Below, piece after piece: positions 1 to 12,069 of a stretch of DNA of 24,000 nucleotides (position 1 is the first letter of the stretch; each line of letters opens with the position of its first letter). This DNA is from Cyclonatronum proteinivorum (GTDB lineage Bacteria; Bacteroidota; Rhodothermia; Balneolales; Cyclonatronaceae), in the NCBI RefSeq assembly GCF_003353065.1, contig NZ_CP027806.1, positions 754,997 through 778,996 of the forward strand, given 5' to 3'. The position numbers and the translations under genes are program-made. The notes under the pieces are model-generated. The model had not been told where the DNA came from. It made no database searches and saw only the letters and a list, made by a program, of their open reading frames with translations.

Positions 1-823
1 CAGCTAATCCCGACAGCAGGTTAGACAAAAAGTTAGCGAAAGAGCGATGACGGGAATGTTCAATTTGACACATGTTTTTGAGTTCATCATTTATGGTCTC
101 AATAACAGATCTCTTTCGCAACAGGATTTTGTCATTAAGACTCATCAGGCAATTTTTCATATTCTTGCGTATTTGGGTAATCAGATGAATGCCGTCATCA
201 AACAAAATCCTGGACAGTGCCGCTGAGATATAGCCTTTATCTGCATACATTTTTCCTGTAAAAGCTTTGATAAAGTTAGGATTTTTAAGGGGATCACGGT
301 CGTCCATATTTCCCGGACTAATCAGGAAGTTGAGCAATTCTCCCTTATCATTGACAGCCAGATGAAGTTTAAATCCGAAGAAAAATCCTATTGAAGATTT
401 ACCCAACTGGCCAATGCCCTTGAAGACTTTATGGTTGGATATACGCTTGTTTTTGCACACACGCAGCGGAGTGGAATCTATGAATGAGATACCGGTGCAC
501 TTTCCCATACAGCACTCTTTGACAAATAATGCCAGCGGCAAATTGGCACCAGCCATAAGCTCAACGAAGCGATTATATGAAACGGTCTTGGGGAAAAGAT
601 GACACATGTGTACCTTGACATATTGAGTATAGAAGCACTTGATGGTGCGATATCCACTGTGATGAAACAGAATCATAATTGTGATCACCTCGCTGGTAGA
701 CAGATTTGGCTTTCGCTTGGGGGTATTTCCAAGCATATGCTTGGCCATTGAGCGATGAAAGCCGATGCAGAAGTTGTCAACCAGGCAGTATATTTCGGTA
801 ATTTTATTGTCGGATAATGTCAT
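1..823 (-). CDS. IS982-family DDE transposase, partial (C-terminus runs off the left window edge)
   Basis: The reverse frame is open from ATG (823-821) to position 1. It is absent from the ORF track because it has no stop inside the window. My translation is MTLSDNKITEIYCLVDNFCIGFHRSMAKHMLGNTPKRKPNLSTSEVITIMILFHHSGYRTIKCFY...FIDSTPLRVCKNKRISNHKVFKG...FGFKLHLAVNDKGELLNFLISPGNMDDRDP...YADKGYIS. This fits the IS982 transposase pattern as I remember it. Confidence 0.8.
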   Translation of the reverse strand, partial: MTLSDNKITEIYCLVDNFCIGFHRSMAKHMLGNTPKRKPNLSTSEVITIMILFHHSGYRTIKCFYTQYVKVHMCHLFPKTVSYNRFVELMAGANLPLALFVKECCMGKCTGISFIDSTPLRVCKNKRISNHKVFKGIGQLGKSSIGFFFGFKLHLAVNDKGELLNFLISPGNMDDRDPLKNPNFIKAFTGKMYADKGYISAALSRILFDDGIHLITQIRKNMKNCLMSLNDKILLRKRSVIETINDELKNMCQIEHSRHRSFANFLSNLLSGLA

Positions 824-959: not shown

Positions 960-2605
960 AGCTGTTAGAAATCTGGATCATTTAGCTTGCTGTAGCTCAC
1001 CAAAGTCGTTCATTACGATCAATTCAATCCCCGTAAGACCTCTTCGAGCACCGTTTTTGCTCTTGTTTTGGCGCTACAATGCATACCAATGCCTCAATGC
1101 CTGCATGGGCTTTGTTTCACTTGCTGTTTTGCCGTCTGTTTTCTATCCCAAGCTGTATGCTGTGCTACCCGCGAGGTAAAAGTTTGAGCGCCATGACAGG
1201 CGCCGCCCAGCCGTGACCCTCAAAAATGCGGATGATGGTTTTGCGTGCATGTTGAACCAGCCGTCCCGCCATATACATCAGGTTCTGGATGACGGTGCGC
1301 AGCCGAAGCCGTTTGCTCCTGGCTTTTCGCCCCGGCACCAGACCTGTTTTTAGCATGCCTTGCCCCGCCAGTCGCAATAAATTAAAGGCTATCATGCTCA
1401 TATCCAGCACGTGCTGGTTGACCCTGAATTTACCCGAGGGGAGTCGCTCTACATCCATATCTGTCTTGAGTTCACTGTGGTACTGCTCGCTGGTACCCCG
1501 CTGCTTGTAGAACTCATGTATCTGCTCCGGGGTCCAGTCCAGGCTCGTCCAATACGCATCGACGGTGATCATAGCCGGAAACATATACTGCCCGTCCGTG
1601 CGGGCAAACCGCTTGGTAACCCGGAACACAATCCGGCAAGTCTTCGGATCATCAGGGGTGTCACTATGTCCGGGAATCTGTACTTGCTTTTGTCCGTACC
1701 ATGCCCGTGCGCCTATATCTACGTACTCGCCATCGGCTCCGCCGTTTTGCTTCACAGCCAGATCCAGCCACTCCTGCGGATCCTGATTGCGTAGGTTGCA
1801 CTTCACAACAAAATCAGTATCCTTCTGGCGCATAAATAACCTGACATTGACGCCACTATCGTTGCCCGAGTCGGTCACCACAAGCCGCTTGTGGCTGGTC
1901 ATACGCTCAGCCATATCCATGGTCTGCTTGAACCACGCATCGGTGCCGGGTGTGTTGCTGTGCGCCGAGCCGTTGCGCAGCTCGTTGTTTATCATCAAAC
2001 CATACGGACCGATGTAGCCAAGCATGGGCGCATAGCCTTCAAACTGTTTGTATGTCCAGTCTACGCCTTCTTTGTGGCTGTTGGAGTTATCCATGGGTGA
2101 GACATCACAGTGAATCACCGCCCAGGTCTGCCCGTGCAGATCTTCGGTCAGCAGGTGCGGATGAGCTGCCAGCAGGCGGGTGTTGAACTCACGAAAGACA
2201 TTATTCAATGACTCCGGGCATTGCTCAAGACGCTGGCGCAGGGTTTCCGGTGAGGGGGTCTTTTTTATTCCCAAGGCAGTGGCAAATACGGGATCGGCAC
2301 GATATTCAGCTATAGCGTCAAACTGAGGTTTACCGACCGACAACAGCCCAATCATGGCCTTAATGGTATCAAGGGTGGAAATATAATTCTTGTTGCGGGG
2401 CAGCGAACAAAGGCCATTGATGTCATTGGCCAGCACGGGATCATCAAGGGCCTGACCAATAAAAGCCAGACCTGCATGAGAGGTAATTGGTGTAGAGGTA
2501 AGCTCAAATTGTATTTTTGACATGCTCAAACGATTATATGAGGGTTCACCAGTTGGGTGAAAATACGCAGAATCGCTAAAGCTAGTAATACAAACGTTTT
2601 AGGCT
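960..2605 (-). mobile_element. IS1380-family insertion sequence; both ends approximate
   Basis: The size (about 1.65 kb) is as expected for this family. The right limit is inferred from where the recombinase reading frame and homology resume (frame opens at 2603, native-looking sequence from about RIKVYYKEYKP). I could not identify the terminal inverted repeats or target duplication by eye. Confidence 0.4.
1165..2529 (-). CDS. IS1380-family DDE transposase (454 aa)
   Basis: Intact 454-aa ORF. The N-terminus reads ...TSTPITSHAGLAFIGQALD..., and the length and overall pattern are typical of IS1380-family transposases. Several + strand ORFs overlapping it are antisense shadows. Confidence 0.85.
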   Translation of the reverse strand: MSMSKIQFELTSTPITSHAGLAFIGQALDDPVLANDINGLCSLPRNKNYISTLDTIKAMIGLLSVGKPQFDAIAEYRADPVFATALGIKKTPSPETLRQRLEQCPESLNNVFREFNTRLLAAHPHLLTEDLHGQTWAVIHCDVSPMDNSNSHKEGVDWTYKQFEGYAPMLGYIGPYGLMINNELRNGSAHSNTPGTDAWFKQTMDMAERMTSHKRLVVTDSGNDSGVNVRLFMRQKDTDFVVKCNLRNQDPQEWLDLAVKQNGGADGEYVDIGARAWYGQKQVQIPGHSDTPDDPKTCRIVFRVTKRFARTDGQYMFPAMITVDAYWTSLDWTPEQIHEFYKQRGTSEQYHSELKTDMDVERLPSGKFRVNQHVLDMSMIAFNLLRLAGQGMLKTGLVPGRKARSKRLRLRTVIQNLMYMAGRLVQHARKTIIRIFEGHGWAAPVMALKLLPRG

Positions 2606-2941
2606 ATGAATGGGCCGGATTGCTCACGGATTAAGGTGTACTATAAAGAATATAAGCCATCAGAATATCTGTTCGAAGGTCAATTTGGTGGTCAGTACTC
2701 AACCCGAAGCATACAAACCCTTTTCAAAAAGGCACTTCAAGCATGTGGGATAAAGAAAAAAGCAACGGTGCATACCTTGAGGCATTCGTATGCGACACAC
2801 CTTCTTGAAAATGGTACGGACCTGCGTATCATTCAGGAATTACTTGGTCATAAGAGTAGTAAAACAACGGAACTTTATACCCATGTGAGCCAACAAACAA
2901 AGCAAAGAATACCTAACCCTCTTGATCAACTGGAACTTTAA
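2603..2941 (+). pseudogene. Tyrosine recombinase (Xer-like / integrase family), C-terminal catalytic fragment only; 5' part removed by the IS1380/IS982 insertions
   Basis: The sequence ...YKEYKPSEYLFEGQFGGQYSTRSIQTLFKKALQACGIKKKATVHTLRHSYATHLLENGTDLRIIQELLGHKSSKTTELYTHVS...NPLDQL carries the HxLRH, LLGH and catalytic Y signature. Only about 110 aa are present, whereas full-length recombinases are more than 300 aa. No IntI-specific insertion is visible between the YLF block and HTLRH. Confidence 0.85.
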
Positions 2942-2945
2942 ATAA

Positions 2946-3022
2946 TGCGCAATAAATGTTCGCATATCACCCTATATTGGCATGTAAAGCGCATGTTTAT
3001 TGCGTGTATAAACGAGTTAGGC
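2946..3022 (+). other. Hairpin plus GTTAGGC box immediately after the recombinase stop; candidate attI-like junction (alternatively just a terminator hairpin)
   Basis: Imperfect inverted repeat: cgcaataaatgttcgc (2948-2963) pairs with gcgcatgtttattgcg (2989-3006), with 9 perfect bp plus an extension. GTTAGGC follows at 3016-3022. The sequence from 3016 onward is complementary to the R''-like box at 3195-3209. Confidence 0.4.
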
Positions 3023-3028
3023 ACAATA

Positions 3029-3187
3029 TTAATCTGTACTTTTAACATACCTATTCGGCAAACCATTTTTTCTATCAGATTCACCTTCTTTGTACTTCTT
3101 GTATTCATCTGAACCCTTTTTCACAAACCTCGACATTGGTTTACCTTCATAACCTCTCAAATATTGTATTGCAACTCTCTGTAACAT
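3029..3187 (-). CDS. Small Lys-rich hypothetical ORF (52 aa) inside the 312-bp cassette; may be non-coding
   Basis: My own translation is MLQRVAIQYLRGYEGKPMSRFVKKGSDEYKKYKEGESDRKNGLPNRYVKSTD. It is below the ORF-track length cutoff, lies opposite to the cassette direction, and shows no recognisable motif. Confidence 0.2.
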   Translation of the reverse strand: MLQRVAIQYLRGYEGKPMSRFVKKGSDEYKKYKEGESDRKNGLPNRYVKSTD

Positions 3188-3194
3188 AATCTAA

Positions 3195-3342
3195 AATACT
3201 GTGCCTAACAAGTGTTTTGCGTCAGGCGGGGTTGACCGCTCCGAATGAACATTTGTGCTATGTTGAAGTTTCGTTTTCATATCATCGTTTGTGCTAAAAA
3301 TCCCGCCCGAACGCAAAGCACTCGGACGTTACCACACATACT
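3195..3342 (+). repeat. attC-like element A: 132-bp imperfect palindrome (core 3203-3334), GCCTAAC ... GTTACCA
   Basis: The left arm gtg-t-tttgcgt-ca-ggcggg (3212-3230) pairs with the right arm cccgcc-cga-acgcaaa-g-cac (3302-3321). That gives 3+7+6 bp with one mismatch and a bulge. An AAC box sits 2 nt before the left arm and a GTT box 6 nt after the right arm. The loop contains tttgtgcta twice. Confidence 0.7.
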
Positions 3343-3435
3343 AAAAAGCTGACCCGCAAACAGCACATTTGGTTTTTCCGACACACAAGCCAACGCTGAA
3401 AAAACCAAAAGAGCCATTTTTTTCCATCGCTCGAC

Positions 3436-3470
3436 TTTGACATTAAGAAAATTGTTTTAAATTTGTCAAA
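3436..3470 (+). promoter_or_regulatory. Bacteroidetes-type promoter (TTTG, about 18 nt, TAAATTTG) overlapping a 7-bp inverted repeat TTTGACA / TGTCAAA; possible operator for the downstream HTH protein
   Basis: TTTG is at 3436-3439 and TAAATTTG at 3458-3465, which fits the TAnnTTTG -7 consensus. The ATG is at 3473, so the mRNA would be nearly leaderless. The inverted repeat is tttgaca (3436-3442) and tgtcaaa (3464-3470). Confidence 0.45.
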
Positions 3471-3472
3471 AA

Positions 3473-3814
3473 ATGACAAGTCTTATGAAAACCACATTTG
3501 GGGAGTATATCCGACTTTTAAGGACTGAAAAAGGGTTGACTTTAACTCAACTTGCTGCCAAACTCAATTTGGATTCGGCAAATTTGAGTAAAATCGAAAA
3601 CAATAAAAGAGATTTTGATGAAAAACGACTTTCTAAACTTTCAAAAATATTTGGGATAAGCTTGAAAGAAGTTCGTGAAGAATTTTTGACAGACCAACTC
3701 GGGAAAAAGATTTACGAAACGAATTGCACCAAAGAACTCTTAAAAGTGGCCGAAGAAAAGGCTGAATATCGCAGAACAATTAATAAAAACCTTCAAACCG
3801 AAAAAGCAATATGA
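3473..3814 (+). CDS. XRE-family helix-turn-helix transcriptional regulator (candidate controller protein of the R-M unit)
   Basis: FGEYIRLLRTEKGLTLTQLAAKLNLDSANLSKIENNKR is a classic HTH_3 motif. The stop overlaps the methyltransferase start (ATGA at 3811-3814). Confidence 0.85.
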   Translation: MTSLMKTTFGEYIRLLRTEKGLTLTQLAAKLNLDSANLSKIENNKRDFDEKRLSKLSKIFGISLKEVREEFLTDQLGKKIYETNCTKELLKVAEEKAEYRRTINKNLQTEKAI

Positions 3815-4602
3815 ATATAGTATCATTTTTTGCAGGAGCAGGCGGCCTTGATTTAGGGTTCCAAAAAGCAGGTTTTGATGTCATTTGGGCAAACGAATAT
3901 GACAAAGAAATTTGGGAAACTTATGAAAAAAATCACCCGCACACATTTCTAGACAAGAGAAGTATTGTAGATATTCCAGCAGACGAAGTTCCTGAATGTG
4001 ATGGAATTATTGGTGGTCCACCCTGCCAAAGTTGGAGTGAAGCAGGTTCAATGCGTGGAATAAATGATAAACGTGGTCAATTATTCTATGATTTTATCAG
4101 AATATTAGAAGCTAAACAGCCTAAATTTTTCCTTGCAGAAAATGTAAGCGGAATGCTTTTGGACAGACACAGTGAAGCACTTAAAAACATAAAAGAATTA
4201 TTTAAAAATGCAGGAGTTGGCTATGAATTATCTTTTCAAATGCTTAACGCCTCAGATTTTGATGTACCTCAAGATAGAAAGCGAGTTTTTTTTGTTGGTA
4301 TCCGTAAAGACTTGAATTTTAATTTTCAGTTTCCAAACCCATTAGATAAAAAAATAACGCTTCAACAAGCAATTTTCGATTTAAAAGAAAGTGTTGTTCC
4401 AGCAAAAGAAGGAAATAAAACGAATAAGGAAAATTGCAAAATTGCTAATCACGAATATATGATTGGTGGGTTTTCGTCAATGTTTATGTCTAGAAATAGA
4501 GTTAGGTCTTGGGACGAACAATCATTTACAATTCAAGCAGGTGGAAGACACGCACCGATTCATCCGCAAGCACCTAAAATGAAATTTAATATAGCAGCAT
4601 AA
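3811..4602 (+). CDS. DNA (cytosine-5) methyltransferase, M.HaeIII-like, C-terminally truncated (motifs I-VIII and most of the target-recognition region present, motifs IX and X absent)
   Basis: Motif I is FFAGAGGLDLGF, motif IV is GGPPCQSWS, motif VI is LAENV, and motif VIII is QDRKRVFFVG. It is near-colinear with M.HaeIII as I remember it, up to ...SFTIQAGGRHAPIHPQAPKM, then ends KFNIAA-stop. No RE..R.QGFPD or GNAVP motif occurs in any frame nearby. Confidence 0.85.
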   Translation: MNIVSFFAGAGGLDLGFQKAGFDVIWANEYDKEIWETYEKNHPHTFLDKRSIVDIPADEVPECDGIIGGPPCQSWSEAGSMRGINDKRGQLFYDFIRILEAKQPKFFLAENVSGMLLDRHSEALKNIKELFKNAGVGYELSFQMLNASDFDVPQDRKRVFFVGIRKDLNFNFQFPNPLDKKITLQQAIFDLKESVVPAKEGNKTNKENCKIANHEYMIGGFSSMFMSRNRVRSWDEQSFTIQAGGRHAPIHPQAPKMKFNIAA

Positions 4603-4835
4603 TGGAAATGATAAAATTTGAAGGAAAAGAATATCCAACATTACTATTAAATTTCCCTTTTGGGGAAAGACAAATTAGTACCGAAAAATTGAATGATAAT
4701 TTGATGAATGTTGATGGGAGTTATGTTTCTGAAAACGCAAGATTAATTGACGAAAGTATATTTTATTTTGTGGATGAAGAAAATTTGAAACTTGATGAAG
4801 CTGAACTTACTCAACTAATTTTATCAGAAATATGA
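4602..4835 (+). CDS. Hypothetical small, highly acidic protein (77 aa)
   Basis: The start overlaps the methyltransferase stop (TAATG) and the stop overlaps the next start (ATGA). I counted 17 D/E against 6 K/R. No motif recognised. Confidence 0.6.
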   Translation: MEMIKFEGKEYPTLLLNFPFGERQISTEKLNDNLMNVDGSYVSENARLIDESIFYFVDEENLKLDEAELTQLILSEI

Positions 4836-5338
4836 TTCAATATCAGTTTTTCCCGCGTTCTCAAGGAATTACGCCTGAAATAAGAAAAGTAATTGATTGC
4901 TTTACACAAGTAAGTGATAAAATTGACTCTGATACAAAGAACCTAAAGAGTAATGAAGTTCTTCAACATTTATATCAACCACTTTCTGAAATTGGTTATG
5001 CGGTAGAAACAAGTAAAGCTAAAGATGATAAAATTGATGTGCCTGTACTTTTTGGATTAGATAATAGAATTGATAAAAGTTATAATGCTGATGCATTAAG
5101 CCAAGATGGAAAAATAGTTATTGAAGTTGAAGCAGGTAGAGCTACTGAAAACAATCAGTATATGAAAGATATTTTCCAGGCTTGTATGATGTTTGAAGTT
5201 GAATATTTAGTTGTAGCAGTAAGAAATACGTATCGTGGACATAAGGATTTTGAAATTGTATTTACCTTTTTAGAAACTCTATATATTTCAAGTCGATTGC
5301 ACTTGCCATTGAAAGGTATATTATTAGTAGGGTACTAA
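4832..5338 (+). CDS. Hypothetical protein, possible PD-(D/E)XK nuclease of BamHI/BglII-like type (168 aa)
   Basis: ...YNADALSQDGKIVIEVEAGRATENNQYMKDIFQACMMFEVEYLVVAV... shows a D-x(n)-E-x-E block followed by a hydrophobic strand, reminiscent of BamHI/BglII-type cores. The assignment rests on motif resemblance only. Confidence 0.55.
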   Translation: MIQYQFFPRSQGITPEIRKVIDCFTQVSDKIDSDTKNLKSNEVLQHLYQPLSEIGYAVETSKAKDDKIDVPVLFGLDNRIDKSYNADALSQDGKIVIEVEAGRATENNQYMKDIFQACMMFEVEYLVVAVRNTYRGHKDFEIVFTFLETLYISSRLHLPLKGILLVGY

Positions 5339-5393
5339 TGCGTGAGGGATAGAAGTGGAAAGCCCACAGCGAGGAACGAGCGAGGACTTGTAA

Positions 5394-6377
5394 CGGATAG
5401 CCCGACCCTTAGGGGCACGCCCAACTCAAACAATAAATGGGAAAGCGTTTGAATATGCTTTACTTTTTGAATTTTATGAACGTTTAAAGACAATAACAAG
5501 TGTTTCAATTGCTGAAAATGAACCATTTCAAAATGCAAAAGGCTGTTTTGATAGTTTTATTGAAGATGAACAAGACACTTTTAGAATTACGGCAAGTGCG
5601 GCTATAAATTTCTTAATTGATATTGAGCCAAGATTGTCAAATGGTATTAGTAAAGAAGATATTTTAGTTCTTGAAATCGTGAGTGACCAGGCAGGACAAA
5701 CAGGAGATGTTCGTGATGTACTTATAATTCGTTCTTTACAAAAATGGGAAATTGGAATTTCCGCCAAAAACAATCATAGAGCTGTAAAACATTCAAGATT
5801 ATCGTTAAACATTGACTTTGGAGAGAAATGGTTAGGAGTTCCTTGCTCACAAAATTATTTTGATGAAATCAAGCCGATTTTTGATATGTTGGGGAATCTT
5901 AAAGCTTCAGACAAATCAACAAAATGGACTTCGATTGAGAATATGCATCAAGTCGTTTACATTCCAATTTTAAACGCTTTTCGAAAAGAACTCTTACGGC
6001 TTGACAAAGAAAACCCCAATATTGTTGCCGAGAACCTTGTTCAATATTTAATAGGAAATGAAGATTTTTACAAGGTAATCAAAGGAAATAAAAAAGTAGA
6101 AATTCAAGCCTACAATTTAAGCGGAACTTTGAATTTACAATTTGAGAACGTAAAGCCTAAAGCTAGAATACCTAAATTGAAATTACCATCAAGACTAATC
6201 GAAATAGTTTACCAAGACAATTCGACAACGACTTTATTGGTTTCGTTAAATGAAGGTTGGCAAATCTCGTTTAGAATTCATAATGCAAGTTCAAGAGTAG
6301 AACCGTCATTGAAATTTGATATAAATCTTGTAAGTGCACCTCATACATTATTCACAAATCACATTTTTATAGCATAA
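5394..6377 (+). pseudogene. Putative cognate type II restriction endonuclease (HaeIII-like by context) lacking a usable start codon for the full-length frame
   Basis: The frame opens after TAA at 5391-5393 and reads ...TQTINGKAFEYALLFEFYERLKTITSVSIAENEPFQNAKGCFDSF... continuously into the track ORF 5634-6377. There is no in-frame ATG, GTG or TTG before the TTG at 5634. A possible catalytic block is GDVRDVLIIRSLQKWEIGISAK. The family assignment is inferred from the adjacent M.HaeIII-like gene. Confidence 0.55.
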
Positions 6378-6487
6378 TGCCAACGTAAAAAGCCATAAAC
6401 ATTGGCAAGTCGCACCAGCCGACACACAAGCCAAAACTTGCCAAAGAGTATGGCTTAGCCAACGCTGACAAACCTGAGCGAATAAGA

Positions 6488-6635
6488 AGTACGTGTGGTA
6501 ACAGCGTGTATGTGGCAATAGCGGGTGAAGTGGTAAATCGAAGGTCTGTGCATTTAAGAAAATTTGTGCTAAACGGAAAGGAAATTGCTTCTAATCCGCT
6601 ACTGCACATACACGCCAAACGTTAATCATAATCCA
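6488..6635 (+). repeat. attC-like element B: 132-bp imperfect palindrome (core 6496-6627), TGGTAAC ... GTTAATC
   Basis: The left arm gcgtgtatgtg-g-ca-a-tagcgg (6504-6524) pairs with the right arm ccgcta-c-tg-cacatacacgc (6597-6615), giving 11+2+6 bp. An AAC box sits 1 nt before the left arm and a GTT box 5 nt after the right arm. It has the same total length and the same asymmetric spacers as element A. The loop contains tttgtgctaaa. Confidence 0.7.
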
Positions 6636-7064
6636 AGACCCGCTCTATAGCAAGCGTTTCGTGCTGACCGGTTCAGGCTATTTGATGAACATCAACGTTG
6701 GTCGCCCCGCCGCACAATCGCCAAGCCGTTATAAGGCAGAAGAAAGTTCGTGCTGGGTTCGCGAATATTTAAGAGAAAGATTCTGTCAGTCCTTTAGTAC
6801 TTTACACAACACGCGTAAATCATTAATCGTATTAGTCAATACAACGTAGGTAGAGAAATTAAAACACCAAAAAGCGGTGATGTTAATGGAAACTGAATTC
6901 AACTGGTTGTATTTTTATTCTTTTCTGGTGTTCTGTGCTAATCGCATGGTTACTTGGCAGAAACGTACCCTCAGCACGAGATTATGAAGGGTGTAGTGAG
7001 TTATGGTCTGATGACTATTTCTGTGATTAGGATTGAATAAGCCAAGTGATGTTATGGAAAAAAA

Positions 7065-8540
7065 ATGAGCGATGAATTAGCAATTCCCGGAACACGGATA
7101 TTAAATGGTTTTTTCGGAACAGGCGAAGTTGCCGGCTTATCTGAAAACAAAGTATATATTCAATTTGACATTAAACGGAAGGCTACATTCACAGATCTAA
7201 GAATTGCTTTCAGAAAGGAGTTCGCATTTACAGATGTTGAACAAAAGCTGGCAGAAAGTCAATACACAGAGGTTCCGCTCGAAATCACAGACGATCGTAA
7301 CATCCATAAACTATGGGAATATATAGACGATAACTCAGGTATAAGCAATAATTCAACTGGTAATTCTGAAAGCTTCATCAAAAACGAATTGGATTGGATA
7401 TGCAACCTGCGAAGCACTAAGCCCATTTTACATCCGTGGCGTTATAGAAAATCAGACCAGTTGTTATGTGAACTCGTAAACAGAACCGTTTATTATTATA
7501 GTTCACACTATAAAATTGCGTTAAGAACTGAATATTCCTATGCAGATAAAAAGTTCAGGTTGAGACGTATAACTCCGGGTTTGGGCAAGGAATTGGAAGG
7601 GTTCTGTATTATGGGGACACCTTTGTACGGAATATCAAATAGCAGCAAGTCAGATGGTTTTTGGGTGATTAAGCATCATGGCGCCCCAATCACTGTTTTC
7701 GATCCCTTTTTTTCATATTCAAAATATATCTTAAAGCCCAACAAACCATTTCAATTTAAAATACTGGCCATAGCATTTGGCTGTTCCTATTCAGATTCCT
7801 CAAGTTTGATTGAGACGTACCTGGAAAAAGAGAACCACGAAATAAACACGTATTCTTTTTTGGGGAAGGTGAATGAGGTCAAAAACTATACGAGCAGTAA
7901 TATTGCAGAAAAACGATATTGCCATTCATTTTTAGAAATCAAAAACACAGGATTTGGGGCACAACATTTTATAGAAATAATGTTACCTGTCTTTTTTGAT
8001 AAAAGGTGTCCACGAGAAGGGGATTGGGTGAAAGGAAAATTATTCTTTGTTGGATTTCCTTCTCAAGCTGTTGATTGGTATGATGGTTGTGTAGTGTTAC
8101 CACGACAGTTCAATAAATTTCCCAAGTATAAACTTTGGAGAGGTTATTGCAAAAGCCTTGCACAGCAAGCTGTATCTATGTGTGATCATCTGGCAGAGCT
8201 TTGTTACCAAAACGACATAAAGGGATGTCGCATCAATATTTTGGAAAAGTATTATACCCCGGATCACTTCAATTATTCTCACAATGACAGGAACTTAAGT
8301 ATTATTCAATATTTATTTCGTTCGCTAATCAATAATTTAAAAAATGAACCATTAGAATTAGAACTTGCGGAGGTTGTGCTAAAGTTTGATTTCAAAAATC
8401 ACAATAGAGAAACTTCCTGTGTAGCTATTGCAACTGCTTTAATTAAAGATGTTAATGGGAAGGAAATTACATCAACCCACAAGCATGATTTGATATTGAA
8501 AGAACACCCTGAAACTAAAAATGTAAGAGACAAATTTTAA
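7065..8540 (+). CDS. Hypothetical protein (491 aa), orphan; the N-terminal 45 aa or so resemble a small SH3/Tudor-like beta domain
   Basis: Long intact AT-rich ORF followed by a strong terminator. The N-terminus GTRILNGFFGTGEVAGLSENKVYIQFD resembles the G..V.H..FG.G.V....V.F pattern of the UvrD/PcrA C-terminal domain. The rest is rich in aromatic residues and Cys, with no motif I recognise. Confidence 0.7.
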   Translation: MSDELAIPGTRILNGFFGTGEVAGLSENKVYIQFDIKRKATFTDLRIAFRKEFAFTDVEQKLAESQYTEVPLEITDDRNIHKLWEYIDDNSGISNNSTGNSESFIKNELDWICNLRSTKPILHPWRYRKSDQLLCELVNRTVYYYSSHYKIALRTEYSYADKKFRLRRITPGLGKELEGFCIMGTPLYGISNSSKSDGFWVIKHHGAPITVFDPFFSYSKYILKPNKPFQFKILAIAFGCSYSDSSSLIETYLEKENHEINTYSFLGKVNEVKNYTSSNIAEKRYCHSFLEIKNTGFGAQHFIEIMLPVFFDKRCPREGDWVKGKLFFVGFPSQAVDWYDGCVVLPRQFNKFPKYKLWRGYCKSLAQQAVSMCDHLAELCYQNDIKGCRINILEKYYTPDHFNYSHNDRNLSIIQYLFRSLINNLKNEPLELELAEVVLKFDFKNHNRETSCVAIATALIKDVNGKEITSTHKHDLILKEHPETKNVRDKF

Positions 8541-8649
8541 TTTCAATATATTTATGACTTGCCAAAAGAGTAAATAGCCATCATTGAAAACCTTTAATCA
8601 AAAAATAGGTCACTTGAAATATTATTATGTCATCTCAAAACTTACTCTT

Positions 8650-9163: not shown

Positions 9164-9462
9164 CTAATTATCTTTATTCGGATCATCCGGCAGCTGTTGC
9201 CGAACGTGCCAAATCGTGAGCATATCAATCTGAAGGGGCTTTATTTCATAAACTAACCGATAATTTCCGTGTATGATTTCTCTGATTTCAGGTCTTCGGA
9301 ACTCGGGTACCATTCTGCCCGATTGTGGTGCGCAGCCAATTGCTGGCAAAGTTCAAAGGCACCCTGTGCCCATTTTACGGCGGCCTGAATATCATCCGCT
9401 GCAATGTAGTCGGTGCACGCTTCAACCCGATCCAAAAACCGTTCGGTAAAATTAGCTTCACT
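9164..9462 (-). pseudogene. parE: ParE/RelE-family toxin gene with two frameshifts
   Basis: The GTG start overlaps the antitoxin stop (GTGA). It reads VKLI, then shifts frame into FTERFLDRVEACTDYIAADDIQAAVKWAQGAFELCQQLAAH, then shifts again into PQSGRMVPEFRRPEIREIIHGNYRLVYEIKPLQIDMLTIWHVRQ. Joined together these match the ParE pattern (...YIA.D...AA......L...P..GR.VPE....IRE...G.YR..Y......I.I..V.H..). The track shows it as two overlapping 60-61 aa ORFs. Confidence 0.75.
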
Positions 9463-9718
9463 TTTTCAGGTGATTTTCAATACGTGCTTTGGCTTCGTCC
9501 ATGGTGTATGTTATCCCTTGTTCGACCTGTTGTTTTGCTTCGAGCAGGTCCTCAAGCAGCGCCAGCTTTTTTGAGATGCGCTCAAATTCGCCTATGTCCA
9601 TCAGCACCGCTGCCCCCTTGCCATGTTGCGTAAGTATGATCGGCTGTTTGTCTTTCTTCAGGCGTTTGATGAAATCAGCGGATTTCTTCCGAAACTCAGA
9701 AACCGGTTCAATATCCAT
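9458..9718 (-). CDS. Phd/YefM-family antitoxin (86 aa)
   Basis: MDIEPVSEFRKKSADFIKRLKKDKQPIILTQHGKGAAVLMDIGEFERISKKLALLEDLLEAKQQVEQG... is a typical Phd/YefM N-terminal fold sequence. I prefer the ATG at 9718 to the track start at 9781. Confidence 0.8.
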   Translation of the reverse strand: MDIEPVSEFRKKSADFIKRLKKDKQPIILTQHGKGAAVLMDIGEFERISKKLALLEDLLEAKQQVEQGITYTMDEAKARIENHLKK

Positions 9719-10185
9719 TGCAGTACATTTAAAATATTTTTTGTGTACTGGAAAGGAACTAAACAAGGCTCGCACACACAACTGAAGACGGTCTGCTGCA
9801 GCACATCCTAACTTTGCAAGCGAATGAACCCGATTTCAGGCCGTTTGGCTCATTCAGCCGTCTTTCTTTTTTGGGGGAACCCCTTGCACATCACTGGGTT
9901 TCATGCTTGTGAAAAATCCCAAACCGGCGGTGCACCCCGTGCTTTTTGAGGTTAGCGCTCCCTGTCAAAGTCTCGCAGCGGGGCTTTCAGAAGTACTGCT
10001 GAACTATGGGAGATTCGGTTTGTGAACAGGAAACATGAAATAAGCTACGACTTTTGGTAATGTACTCTGAGCCATTACAAAATCCCACAAAAAAACCGCC
10101 CGTTTTTTTGAAGTCGGTTTCGTCCATGCTACCTTCCTTTAAATCCATCCACCTCACCATTCCATAAATCAATCCCACCAATACC

Positions 10186-11478: not shown

Positions 11479-11602
11479 AGGCTAAGTTTTCTGTACTGTT
11501 AGGTGATGAAACGCTCTGAGGCCGGAGGTGGAGGTCAGCTCGTGCATAATATAGATAAAGTAAGGCTGCGCAGCTTTATGGTTTTTGTTGAAGAGAAAAA
11601 TT

Positions 11603-11961
11603 GAGACTGCCTGTAAGCCGAATTCTGTGCCCTTATGGAATAAGGGTGGTAATCATTTATCTGGGATGCCGGTCACCCGGCACCTCAAGCGGCCTACCCG
11701 GCAGCATAGCAACCGGTGGTGCATACTGCCTGCTTGGCCTTGCACCCCGTGAGGTTTACCCTGCCGCTTTAGTCGCCTAAAGCGCGGTGGGCTCTTACCC
11801 CACCATTTCACCCTTACCCCGGCAAGCCGGGGCGGTATATTTTCTGTGGCACTGTCTGTATCCGCCATGAGGCGGACCCTTCCTGTTAGGAAGCACGGAA
11901 CCGGTAGGTGTTCGGACTTTCCTCCTTCTGAACAAGCAAAAGGCGATTACCCGGCAGCCTC
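11603..11961 (-). ncRNA. rnpB: RNase P RNA, bacterial type A
   Basis: The reverse strand reads GAGGCUGCC...GGAGGAAAGUCCGAAC...ACAGAAAAUAUACCGCC...GGUAAGGGUGAAAUGGUGGGGUAAGAGCCCACC...GGGUAAACC...AGAUAAAUGAUUACC...ACAGAAUUCGGCUUACAGGCAGUCUC. P1 pairing joins the 5' GAGGCUGCC and the 3' GGCAGUCUC. The track ORF 11653-11868 lies inside this RNA and is spurious. Confidence 0.95.
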
Positions 11962-12069
11962 AATAAACAGCAAAAAATAAAGAACGCTAATGTTTTCAGG
12001 ATGGCTTCAGCAAAGCGAGCAGTTGCGCAATAAATGTGCTGTAGCTCGTGAGCGTTTCAAGATAAGGAC

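What the first reader, a model, noticed from the sequence alone, without database searches (positions are those of the whole stretch)
2941..6640. Integron-like cassette array built on two 132-bp attC-like palindromes, next to a co-oriented tyrosine recombinase that is not IntI-type
Seen directly:
- Two imperfect palindromes (3203-3334 and 6496-6627) have different sequences but the same architecture. Each is 132 bp from the AAC box to the GTT box. The AAC box lies 1-2 nt from the left arm, the GTT box 5-6 nt from the right arm, and the stems carry bulges.
- The boundaries obey circular-cassette logic twice. GTTAGGCACAaTATT (3016-3030) is the reverse complement, at 14/15 positions, of AATAcTGTGCCTAAC (3195-3209). 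GTTACCACACaTACT (3328-3342) is the reverse complement, at 14/15 positions, of AGTAcGTGTGGTAAC (6488-6502). The single mismatch falls at the same position in both pairs.
- Cutting at G/TT gives a 312-bp cassette (3017-3328) and a 3293-bp cassette (3329-6621). In the second, all genes point toward the 3' palindrome, as in integron cassettes.

Established knowledge: integron attC sites are 57-141 bp imperfect palindromes with RYYYAAC and GTTRRRY boxes, and crossover occurs at G/TT.

What is unusual:
- The adjacent recombinase fragment (2603-2941) is transcribed toward the array.
- It shows a plain Xer-like YLFEG...HTLRH spacing, without the IntI-specific extra domain.

Inference: either this is an integron relative using a different recombinase clade, or the true IntI lies elsewhere. 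A third cassette starting at GTTAATCATAATCC (6621) has no matching terminal site that I could find.
Basis: partly seen in the sequence, partly recalled or inferred. Interest (0 to 1): 0.85.

Follow-up and report, generated by a model that had tools for sequence, protein, structure and literature searches.

The report
Integron-like cassette array, integrase lacks I2
This stretch of the Cyclonatronum proteinivorum chromosome is a decayed gene-cassette array that works like an integron, but its recombinase family lacks the protein segment thought essential for integron integrases, and no description of such elements was found in the papers searched.

Summary

- **The two palindromes.** Sites 3199-3338 and 6492-6631 belong to a widespread family of about 124-nt sites ("class A"). 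A covariance model trained only on non-window sites finds exactly these two, at E = 1e-20 and 8e-14.
- **The recombinase.** The 2627-2941 fragment is the IS-truncated end of a recombinase whose closest relatives are integron integrases. The family precisely lacks the I2 "additional domain".
- **Linkage.** This family sits next to class-A arrays in fixed geometry. Of 38 informative loci, 19 have a co-oriented downstream array and 8 a divergent upstream one.
- **The attI-like site.** A conserved roughly 75-nt site (2942-3015) ends at G/TT. Copies elsewhere diverge exactly there into at least 15 different first cassettes.
- **Cassette swapping.** Cassettes are exchanged as exact G/TT-bounded units between strains.
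- **Site architecture.** Class-A sites have no conserved extrahelical bases. They carry two A·C mismatches that become G·T wobbles on the bottom strand.
A third, degenerate site of a canonical-looking class lies at about 6646-6735. In relatives the whole attI module is nested as a cassette inside arrays of that second class.

No prior description was found in ten literature searches. The recombinase's activity and the single-strand mechanism are inferred, not shown.

The parts
1165..2529 (-). IS transposase (DDE_Tnp_1_4, IS1380-like). The IS spans roughly 1105-2600 and replaced the 5' two-thirds of the recombinase gene. A second IS (IS982-like transposase, 2-823, minus strand) lies further left.
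   Evidence: Pfam hits. tblastn finds no N-terminal recombinase remnant anywhere in the window. A candidate terminal inverted repeat lies at 1111-1125 and 2580-2594.
2627..2941 (+). C-terminal 104 codons of an IntI-like tyrosine recombinase that lacks the I2 domain (pseudogene). It keeps HTLRH...LLGH...Y and the PNPLDQLEL tail. The mechanical ORF is 2606-2941.
   Evidence: PF00589 at 1e-24. 85-88% identity to fragments P0001-P0005. Homology starts at 2627-2630. An intact 274-aa orthologue is in L105.
2942..3015 (+). attI-like double-stranded site. It has two inverted-repeat boxes (GCGCAATAAATG ... CATGTTTATTGCG) followed by GTATAAACGA. The crossover G is at 3016.
   Evidence: Conserved after the stop codon in L001, L004 and L005. 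77-92% identical to more than 30 copies elsewhere. Copies diverge right after GTT. No significant single-strand fold, z about 0.
3017..3328 (+). Cassette 1 (312 bp). It holds only a 52-aa minus-strand ORF (3029-3187) with no family hit. It ends in class-A site 1 (model hit 3199-3338; AAC at 3207-3209, GTT at 3328-3330).
3329..6621 (+). Cassette 2 (3293 bp). It carries an HTH regulator (3473-3814), a C5 methyltransferase truncated at profile position 255 of 324 (3811-4602), two unknown ORFs (4602-4835 and 4832-5338) and an R.HaeIII-family endonuclease (5439-6377). It ends in class-A site 2 (model hit 6492-6631; AAC at 6500-6502, GTT at 6621-6623).
   Evidence: Pfam. Model hits. Walk script.
3336..3433 (+). 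Conserved cassette 'leader' element. It is a hairpin with loop CCGACACACAAGCCAA. A related 'trailer' lies at 6376-6470, just before class-A site 2.
   Evidence: 84-91% identity to the same positions in other cassettes of L005, L012, L097, L100, L106, L035 and L050. Inverted repeat I18.
6621..6648 (+). Conserved linker GTTAATCATAATCCAAGACCCGCTCTATAGC. This is the unoccupied right arm of the attI module plus the R'' box of the following class-B site. The R'' box is mutated here from AAC to AGC.
   Evidence: The same linker follows class-A sites in L098 (three times), L088, L092 and L109.
6646..6735 (+). Degenerate class-B attC. In intact copies this site is about 86 nt and canonical-looking, with a 12-bp R box and two extrahelical bases on the bottom strand's 3' arm.
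   Evidence: About 76% identity to more than 25 near-identical copies in L088-L092, L098 and L109. The intact copy folds at z = -4.4, the window copy at z of about 0 to -0.9.
6729..8604 (+). Class-B cassette starting GTTATAAGGCAG. It carries an orphan 491-aa ORF (7065-8540). It is truncated at about 8604, so its own attC is lost.
   Evidence: 85% identity over 6632-8604 to L088-L091. There the cassette ends CTGCCTCGTAAC plus a class-B site. No R'' match lies downstream in the window.

Best explanation
The region is the eroded remnant of an integron-like gene-capture platform in the chromosome of Cyclonatronum proteinivorum (Balneolota).

**Proposed working of an intact element**
- A tyrosine recombinase closely related to integron integrases, but without the I2 helix, is encoded just upstream of a roughly 75-bp double-stranded attI-like site.
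- It recombines that site at G/TT with circular cassettes.
- Each cassette carries a roughly 124-nt imperfect palindrome, here called a class-A attC.
- This builds a co-oriented array.

**Likely form of the site**
- The palindrome most likely acts as a folded single strand, and the bottom strand is the better candidate.
- In that fold the cassette's two ends pair into a 9-bp AAC/GTT R box.
- A 5-nt against 1-nt spacer separates the R box from a stem of about 19 bp.
- Two conserved top-strand A·C mismatches become bottom-strand G·T wobbles. They may mark the active strand, taking the place of the extrahelical bases of canonical attC sites.

**State of the window copy**
- The recombinase is cut off by an IS.
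- Two class-A cassettes remain: a 312-bp one and a HaeIII-type restriction-modification cassette.
- The module runs through a conserved linker into a second, canonical-looking attC class (class B).
- Comparison with relatives shows the whole attI module is itself a cassette nested in a class-B array.

**Shown and inferred**
- Shown: the site family, its covariation, the G/TT-bounded cassette turnover, the linkage to the recombinase, and the absence of I2.
- Inferred: that this recombinase is the catalyst, and that the reaction is single-stranded on the bottom strand.
For: **Site family**
- R1 finds 89 sites in 84 loci plus 30 more in 23 metagenome loci.
- R2, trained without the window, recovers both window sites.

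**Structure under selection**
- 81.7% of cells are paired, against 56% in shuffles and 33-44% in slid controls.
- 404 cells changed on both sides, against 157 expected.

**Cassette logic**
- It repeats in L026 (5 cassettes), L060 (4), L044 (4) and others.

**Turnover at exactly G/TT**
- L004 and L005 share their flanks and one cassette but differ in the first cassette.
- L009, L010 and L012 are identical up to ...GATGTT and then differ.
- 23 copies of the attI pattern carry at least 15 different first cassettes.

**Linkage to the recombinase**
- 19 of 38 informative loci have a co-oriented downstream array, 8 a divergent upstream array, 1 a convergent array and 10 none. Almost no hit lies in another orientation: one of L055's two is upstream on the + strand.

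**The recombinase itself**
- The best solved relative is VchIntIA (2a3v, E = 3.6e-45). It aligns in two stretches that skip chain residues 205-246.
- TIGR02249 matches positions 2-182 and 240-315 only.
- The KDR-to-LFEG span is 30 aa in every full-length member where the motif search matched.

**Strand asymmetry**
- The bottom-strand stem is more stable in 52 of 62 sites. G·T wobbles concentrate at two positions.

**Nested grammar**
-.
Against: - No experiment shows that this recombinase acts on these sites.
- The window copy, and most of its closest relatives, are truncated or internally deleted.
- 14 of 23 attI-like copies have no recombinase next to them.
- Class-B sites carry canonical-type extrahelical bases. 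A conventional IntI elsewhere in the genome could therefore serve class B and perhaps class A.
- I could not scan the rest of the C. proteinivorum genome.
- Cassette boundaries alone do not distinguish single-strand from double-strand exchange.
- Published work holds that I2 is required for hairpin recombination (PMC7790495).
- R2 descends from a search made with R1, which had seen the window sites, so its independence is not complete.
Confidence: 0.7

Rival explanations
1. The array is an ordinary integron remnant (CALIN). A conventional I2-bearing IntI encoded elsewhere in the genome services both class-A and class-B sites. The adjacent I2-less recombinase is a bystander, or recombines only the attI-like site for another purpose.
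For: - Class-B sites look canonical, with two extrahelical bases on the expected arm.
- attI-like modules occur without any recombinase in 14 of 23 metagenome loci.
- The recombinase copies of the window's own clade are mostly decayed.
- The R box consensus GTTRKS is close to the canonical GTTRRRY.
Against: - tblastn found no I2-bearing integrase in the metagenome-derived loci L086-L114 or the window, and every full-length recombinase extracted from 44 of the genome loci lacks the insert.
- The I2-less gene and class-A arrays keep a fixed geometry in 28 of 38 informative loci across several phyla.
- The attI-like site abuts the stop codon.
- Class-A sites lack the conserved extrahelical bases that I2 reads.
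Confidence: 0.2
2. The I2-less recombinase does move the cassettes, but by classical double-strand, two-step Xer-type recombination. The core would be the L'-spacer-R' part of each site, and the palindrome would have another role, for example as a terminator or in replication.
For: - The attI-like site and the 3' half of class-A sites share a similar layout...TATA.., then AAC(N0-2), then GTT plus an 11-bp arm.
- Xer relatives normally act on duplex DNA.
- The absence of I2 removes the known block on second-strand exchange (PMC7790495).
Against: - The 5' half of the site (R'' and L'') is kept complementary to the 3' half by many compensatory changes over about 30 bp. A duplex core would not need this.
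- Strand-biased A·C against G·T positions make sense only for a folded single strand.
- Site length is tightly fixed at 121-127 nt in 62 of 77 sites.
Confidence: 0.1

Closest known systems
Canonical integrons (IntI with the I2 helix, attI, attC; for example class 1 integrons and the Vibrio cholerae superintegron)
   Same: - A tyrosine recombinase sits next to an attI.
- Arrays hold co-oriented, mostly promoterless cassettes.
- Each cassette ends in an imperfect palindrome with AAC...GTT inverse cores.
- The crossover is at G/TT, and the cassette's start is complementary to its own R'' box.
- The R' consensus GTTRKS is close to GTTRRRY.
- Several attC length classes occur within one array.
- Cargo includes restriction-modification and toxin-antitoxin genes.
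- The recombinase's nearest solved relative is VchIntIA.
   Different: - The recombinase lacks the I2 segment (VchIntIA residues 205-246), which is held to be essential for attC recombination (PMC7790495).
- Class-A sites have no conserved extrahelical bases. They have two fixed A·C/G·T positions instead.
- The central spacer is 5 nt against 1 nt.
- The length is nearly fixed at about 124 nt.
- The loop carries strand-specific GTGCT-type repeats.
- In most loci attI lies after the 3' end of the recombinase gene, so gene and array are co-oriented.
- The attI module also occurs as a cassette inside another array.
'Inverted-integrase' integrons (Treponema, Chlorobi, Planctomycetes and others; from my own knowledge of Boucher et al. 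2007, not read here)
   Same: The integrase gene and the cassette array face the same direction.
   Different: Those integrases are described as carrying the additional domain. The family here does not.
CALIN (clusters of attC sites lacking an integron integrase; IntegronFinder, PMC9024848)
   Same: The window has two or more attC-type sites and no functional integrase, so operationally it would be called a CALIN if the attC model recognises the sites.
   Different: A cognate-looking recombinase remnant and an attI-like site are present. Whether IntegronFinder's covariance model detects class-A sites was not testable here.
Xer recombinases with dif sites and IMEX elements; archaeal XerA (NF040815)
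   Same: - The overall fold and length are similar, with no I2.
- Full-length relatives pass the NF040815 cut-off (244, 229 and 227 bits against 220).
   Different: - XerC and XerD models score far below their cut-offs (about 166-206 bits against 330-335).
- The genomic context is a multi-cassette array, not a single dif site.
- The recombination sites are long hairpin-forming palindromes.

Membership tests
Integron (sensu stricto) | An integrase with the IntI-specific additional domain (I2 helix) | tested here: not met
   - TIGR02249 matches in two stretches that skip model positions of about 180-240. Scores are 202-243 bits, below the 265 cut-off.
- The window fragment scores 98 bits.
- The alignment to VchIntIA (2a3v) skips chain residues 205-246.
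- The KDR-to-LFEG span is 30 aa.
Integron (sensu stricto) | attC: an imperfect palindrome with inverse core sites RYYYAAC and GTTRRRY at the cassette's 3' end | tested here: met
   - AAC and GTT are present in all 77 unique sites compiled (9 other model hits with variant boxes were set aside).
- The left box is ..MYAAC and the right box is GTTRKS.
- The stems are supported by covariation.
- Window sites lie at 3207-3330 and 6500-6623.
Integron (sensu stricto) | Conserved extrahelical bases on the bottom strand's R''/L'' arm | tested here: not met
   - Class A: 39 of 62 sites have no single-strand bulge at all, and the bulges that occur fall on either arm.
- Class B: intact copies in relatives do have two, a T and a G on the 3' arm. 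The window's class-B copy is degenerate.
Integron (sensu stricto) | Cassettes inserted and exchanged as units at G/TT | tested here: met
   - L004 against L005.
- L009, L010 and L012 against each other.
- 23 attI copies with at least 15 different first cassettes, all diverging after GTT.
Integron (sensu stricto) | An attI site adjacent to the integrase gene | tested here: met
   A conserved site of about 75 bp follows directly after the stop codon in the window, L001, L004, L005, L105 and many genome loci. It lies at the gene's 3' side, unlike in most integrons.
Integron (sensu stricto) | Sites recognised by the IntegronFinder attC covariance model, and the integrase by the intI_Cterm HMM | not testable with these tools
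   Neither model is available here. Rfam at gathering threshold returned only RNase P RNA for the window.
XerC/XerD chromosome-dimer resolvases | Scores at or above the cut-off of TIGR02224 or TIGR02225 | tested here: not met
   Full-length relatives score 166-206 bits, against cut-offs of 335 and 330.
NF040815 (XerA-type tyrosine recombinase / integron integrase) | Score at or above 220 bits | tested here: met
   - Three of four full-length relatives pass, at 244, 229 and 227 bits. The fourth scores 197.
- The window fragment scores 106 bits because it is truncated.

The most novel reading that the evidence does not exclude
A large clade of integron-integrase relatives that never had, or lost, the I2 helix runs its own integron-type system across Bacteroidota, Balneolota, Ignavibacteriota, Calditrichota and Marinimicrobia. 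It would use hairpin attC sites marked by G·T wobbles instead of extrahelical bases. Its attI module can itself travel as a cassette inside a second, canonical-type array, giving an integron within an integron. This would show that I2 is not a prerequisite for hairpin-cassette recombination, and it would expose either the pre-I2 ancestor state or an independent solution.
Probability: 0.5. Interest if true: 0.9.

Novelty: new variant of a known kind. Interest (0 to 1): 0.82.

Why it matters
**The current view.** Integron integrases are taken to have become able to recombine folded single-stranded attC sites by acquiring the I2 helix. I2 and single-strand recombination are described as exclusive to them (PMC7790495).

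**What this family offers.** It is a natural, widespread group of their closest relatives without I2, and it still sits on integron-type cassette arrays. That makes the question directly testable. The family is either a living pre-I2 stage or a second solution.

**Consequences for surveys.** Integron surveys that require the I2 region to call an integrase would miss these platforms. One such survey reports almost no integrons in Bacteroidetes (PMC9024848). The family may therefore be an overlooked pool of mobile genes in the FCB group, including restriction-modification, toxin-antitoxin and defence-type genes.

**A possible tool.** The short recombinase (274 aa) with structure-defined sites could also be useful for engineering.

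Tried and rejected
- **A third class-A site in the window.** None was found with filters off, and there is no R'' match for GTTAATCATAA. I dropped the idea of an orphan third cassette once the linker and class-B grammar were seen.
- **A second recombinase remnant at 1081-1105.** The inverted repeat I1 between 1081-1105 and 2769-2793 suggested one. tblastn found nothing there, so I treat it as chance.
- **A degenerate attC at 9714-9757.** The palindrome there and the CCTAAC at about 9808 scored nothing. The palindrome is more likely the operator region of the Phd/ParE pair.
- **An insertion in the first L001 attC.** On re-reading it is a GTT-to-GAT variant followed by a small GC-rich, ORF-less cassette.
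- **The orthologous locus in other strains.** Exact-protein look-ups for three window proteins found nothing. The only matching contigs stop at the RNase P gene.
- **An IS91-type or phage-type origin for the recombinase.** No such neighbouring genes appear in any locus.
- **REP, MITE or terminator explanations.** These are rejected because of the exact G/TT unit boundaries and the orientation linkage.
- **The MAFFT alignment of the sites.** It misaligned the outer stem. Model-based realignment was needed.
- **A canonical attC covariance model of my own.** I did not build one. A small home-made model would not be equivalent to IntegronFinder's.


Full report
**1. What is in the window**

The window comes from the chromosome of Cyclonatronum proteinivorum (Balneolota). 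Two housekeeping proteins are exact matches to that species.

From left to right the region holds the following.

| Coordinates | Strand | Feature |
|---|---|---|
| 2-823 | - | IS982-type transposase |
| 1165-2529 | - | IS1380-type transposase |
| 2627-2941 | + | Last 104 codons of a tyrosine recombinase |
| 2942-3015 | + | Non-coding attI-like stretch of 74 bp |
| 3017-3328 | + | Cassette 1, ending in the first palindrome |
| 3329-6621 | + | Cassette 2, ending in the second palindrome |
| 6621-6648 | + | Linker |
| about 6646-6735 | + | Degenerate palindrome of another type |
| 7065-8540 | + | Orphan 491-aa gene |
| 9164-9718 | - | Eroded ParE/Phd pair |

Cassette 2 carries these ORFs:
- an HTH regulator;
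- a truncated C5 methyltransferase;
- two unknown ORFs;
- an R.HaeIII-family endonuclease.

Beyond the ParE/Phd pair lie ordinary housekeeping genes, including RNase P RNA.

**2. The palindromes belong to a large family**

I searched for relatives of the recombinase fragment. I then followed the 'cassette logic' with a script. In that logic, the first 11 nt after a GTT are the reverse complement of the 11 nt ending in AAC just before the next palindrome.

The same arrangement repeats in many genomes:
- five consecutive cassettes in L026;
- four in Algoriphagus confluentis (L060);
- four in Polaribacter vadi (L044);
- others besides.

A covariance model built from 22 such sites found 89 sites in 84 loci. 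It found 30 more in 23 metagenome loci.

A second model was trained on 77 sites, none from the window. It recovers exactly the two window sites (96.4 and 66.6 bits) and nothing else in the 24 kb.

The stems are maintained by compensatory change:

| Measure | Observed | Control |
|---|---|---|
| Cells paired | 81.7% | 56% after shuffling; 33-44% when partners are slid |
| Cells changed on both sides | 404 | 157 expected |

Site length is tightly fixed. It is 121-127 nt in 62 of 77 unique sites. Minor classes measure 182-189 nt and 50-87 nt.

**3. Cassettes really move as G/TT-bounded units**

- L004 and L005 are two versions of one chromosomal locus (dnaX-ybaB-recR-recombinase). Their first cassettes differ. 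They share the next cassette, whose borders fall exactly at GTT on both sides.
- One MAG carries three identical copies of recombinase plus attI (L009, L010, L012). They are identical up to ...CACTGATGTT and unrelated afterwards.
- A scan of metagenomes for the last 23 nt of the attI-like site found 23 copies. They carry at least 15 different first cassettes, all diverging right after GTT.
- The block 6632-8604 of the window is 85% identical to a cassette found in other arrays.

**4. The recombinase**

All full-length relatives extracted from 44 of the genome loci, and the one in L105, have the usual Xer/IntI catalytic core, with only about 30 residues between the KDR and LFEG motifs wherever the motif search matched.

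Their best solved relative is the integron integrase VchIntIA (2a3v, E = 3.6e-45). It ranks ahead of archaeal XerA and well ahead of XerD. The alignment comes in two pieces and skips chain residues 205-246, which is the I2 region.

NCBIfam gives the same picture:
- The integron-integrase model TIGR02249 is the first or second hit, but it matches in two stretches that omit model positions of about 180-240. The scores fall below its cut-off.
- NF040815 ('tyrosine recombinase/integron integrase') is passed by three of the four full-length relatives tested.
- XerC and XerD models are far below their cut-offs.

The family is therefore IntI-like without I2. It is not a generic Xer.

The window copy lost its first two-thirds to an IS. 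An intact 274-aa orthologue exists in a soda-lake metagenome (L105).

**5. Linkage and geometry**

Of 38 loci with at least 3 kb of downstream flank:

| Arrangement of the class-A array | Loci |
|---|---|
| Directly downstream and co-oriented, as in the window | 19 |
| Upstream and divergent, the classical integron layout | 8 |
| Convergent | 1 |
| No array found | 10 |

Almost no hit lies in any other orientation; one of L055's two hits is upstream on the + strand.

In the co-oriented type, a conserved site follows the stop codon and ends ...TATA(A/C)A..(N0-2)|GTT. It has two inverted-repeat boxes. It does not fold better than shuffled sequence. Both points fit a duplex attI.

**6. How class-A sites differ from canonical attC**

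The inverse cores are the same as in canonical sites. AAC and GTT are present in all 77 unique sites compiled, and the right box is GTTRKSNRYMA. The differences are these.

- **Fixed non-complementary bases.** The outer two positions of the 11-nt arms do not pair. C stands at -8 in 60 of 77 sites and A at +8 in 75 of 77.
- **Asymmetric spacer.** The spacer between the R box and the long stem is usually 1-3 nt on one side and 4-6 nt (mode 5) on the other.
- **No conserved extrahelical bases.** 39 of 62 sites have no bulge at all.
- **Strand-biased mismatches.** Two positions carry A·C mismatches on the top strand. These read as G·T wobbles on the bottom strand. The bottom-strand stem is more stable in 52 of 62 sites, with mean free energies of -14.2 against -12.0 kcal/mol.
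- **Strand-specific loop motifs.** GTGCT occurs 34 times against 4.1 expected. The forward form outnumbers the reverse 47 to 3. The motifs recur about every 20 nt.

The lack of extrahelical bases matches the lack of I2, which in canonical integrases docks those bases (PMC7790495).

**7.

Twenty-five nucleotides after the second palindrome lies a degenerate copy of a different site, about 86 nt long ('class B').

In related soda-lake contigs, class B occurs as many near-identical copies that bound cassettes by the same logic. An intact copy folds with three features (z = -4.4):
- a 12-bp R box;
- a spacer of 6 nt against 2 nt;
- two single-base bulges (T and G) on the bottom strand's 3' arm.

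This is a canonical-looking attC.

In those arrays a fixed grammar recurs:
- a class-B cassette start (GTTATAAAGCGG...);
- the attI-like element;
- |GTT, followed by one or more class-A cassettes;
- |GTTAATCATAATCCAAGACCCGCTTTATAAC;
- a class-B site.

The window shows the same grammar: attI, A, A, linker, B. The attI module is therefore itself a class-B cassette.

GTTAATCATAATCC is the unoccupied right arm of attI. The next real cassette starts at 6729 and is cut off at about 8604.

Which enzyme serves class B is unknown. 14 of 23 attI-like copies have no recombinase beside them. tblastn found no I2-bearing integrase in the metagenome-derived loci L086-L114 or the window. I could not scan the rest of the genome.

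**8. Mechanism, with shown and inferred steps**

Shown:
- the site family and its conserved fold;
- unit turnover at G/TT;
- linkage to an I2-less IntI relative and to an attI-like site;
- strand asymmetry.

Inferred:
- that this recombinase catalyses attI x attC and attC x attC exchange;
- that the site reacts as a folded bottom strand with single-strand exchange resolved by replication, as in integrons.

The main rivals are a conventional IntI acting in trans (about 0.2) and a duplex Xer-type reaction (about 0.1).

**9. Novelty**

Ten full-text searches found no description of integron-type arrays served by I2-less integrase relatives. They also found no report of integrons in Balneolota.
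- The IntegronFinder 2 paper reports integrons as nearly absent from Bacteroidetes (PMC9024848).
- The genome paper for this organism does not mention integrons.
- The library lacks most subscription journals, so prior description cannot be excluded.

I class this as a new variant of a known kind. It works like an integron but fails two defining membership features, I2 and extrahelical bases.

**10. The window copy**

It is a relic:
- the recombinase is truncated by an IS;
- the methyltransferase is truncated;
- the class-B site has decayed;
- the last cassette is cut.

Its value lies in pointing to the family.

Noticed in passing
window 3811-4602 and 5439-6377: The HaeIII-type restriction-modification cassette has a methyltransferase truncated at Pfam position 255 of 324, so the C-terminal motifs are missing. 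The R.HaeIII-family endonuclease ORF is full length (1-298 of 298). About 830 bp carrying two unknown ORFs (4602-5338) lies between them. Either the endonuclease is inactive or unexpressed, or another GGCC methylase protects the genome.
   Followed up: partly
window 5339-5430: A GC-rich stretch of about 90 nt (GCGTGAGGGATAGAAGTGGAAAGCCCACAGCGAGGAACGAGCGAGGACTTGTAACGGATAGCCCGACCC...) sits inside an AT-rich cassette, directly upstream of the endonuclease start. It looks like a small inserted element. Its origin is unknown.
   Followed up: no
window 3336-3433 and 6376-6470; also L005 10661-10754 and 13331-13413, L012 15177-15256 and 15471-15517: Conserved 'leader' and 'trailer' elements of 80-100 nt flank restriction-modification cassettes in unrelated arrays, at 84-91% identity. 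Each is a hairpin with loop CCGACACACAAGCCAA. They could be a promoter and terminator pair, or a separate small mobile unit carrying restriction-modification genes.
   Followed up: partly
loops of class-A sites, e.g. window 3230-3300 and 6525-6595: The 'variable' loop is not variable. It holds about four direct (T/A)GTG(C/G) motifs roughly 20 nt apart. GTGCT is 8-fold enriched and strand-specific at 47 to 3. This suggests an accessory binding protein, or binding by the extra N-terminal domain present in the long (360-500 aa) recombinase forms.
   Followed up: partly
L026, L044, L052, L059, L051, L069 and others (recombinase genes): Many family members carry an N-terminal extension of 100-220 aa, with a W..t..cWhiP motif, that has no Pfam match. 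The window's own clade (L105, 274 aa) lacks it.
   Followed up: partly
L101, L106, L111 (upstream of the attI-like element): In these metagenome contigs the attI-like element directly follows what looks like the 3' end of a tRNA gene (…GGTTCAAATCC…), with no recombinase gene between them. I did not check this with the tRNA finder.
   Followed up: no
L001 10909-11200 and L010 15171-15248, 20197-20281: Some arrays also hold short (78-87 nt), GC-rich, ORF-less units with repeated CCCTTCGGG motifs. Some sites carry GAT or GT in place of GTT at the crossover. These may be empty cassettes and imprecise or decayed junctions.
   Followed up: no
L001 9480-9810: A long tandem array of GAAAACAGA(TAACT) units, with an assembly gap, lies immediately upstream of the truncated recombinase in that MAG.
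   Followed up: no
window 9164-9349 and 9458-9718: A ParE toxin (only profile positions 42-88 of 89 remain) and a Phd/YefM antitoxin lie on the minus strand at the distal edge of the array. A palindrome at 9714-9757 overlaps the antitoxin's first codons and runs into its upstream region. This is probably a decayed toxin-antitoxin cassette.
   Followed up: partly
window 11598-11962: Bacterial RNase P RNA (class A), on the minus strand, at 287.6 bits. Two related metagenome contigs end just at this gene.
   Followed up: yes
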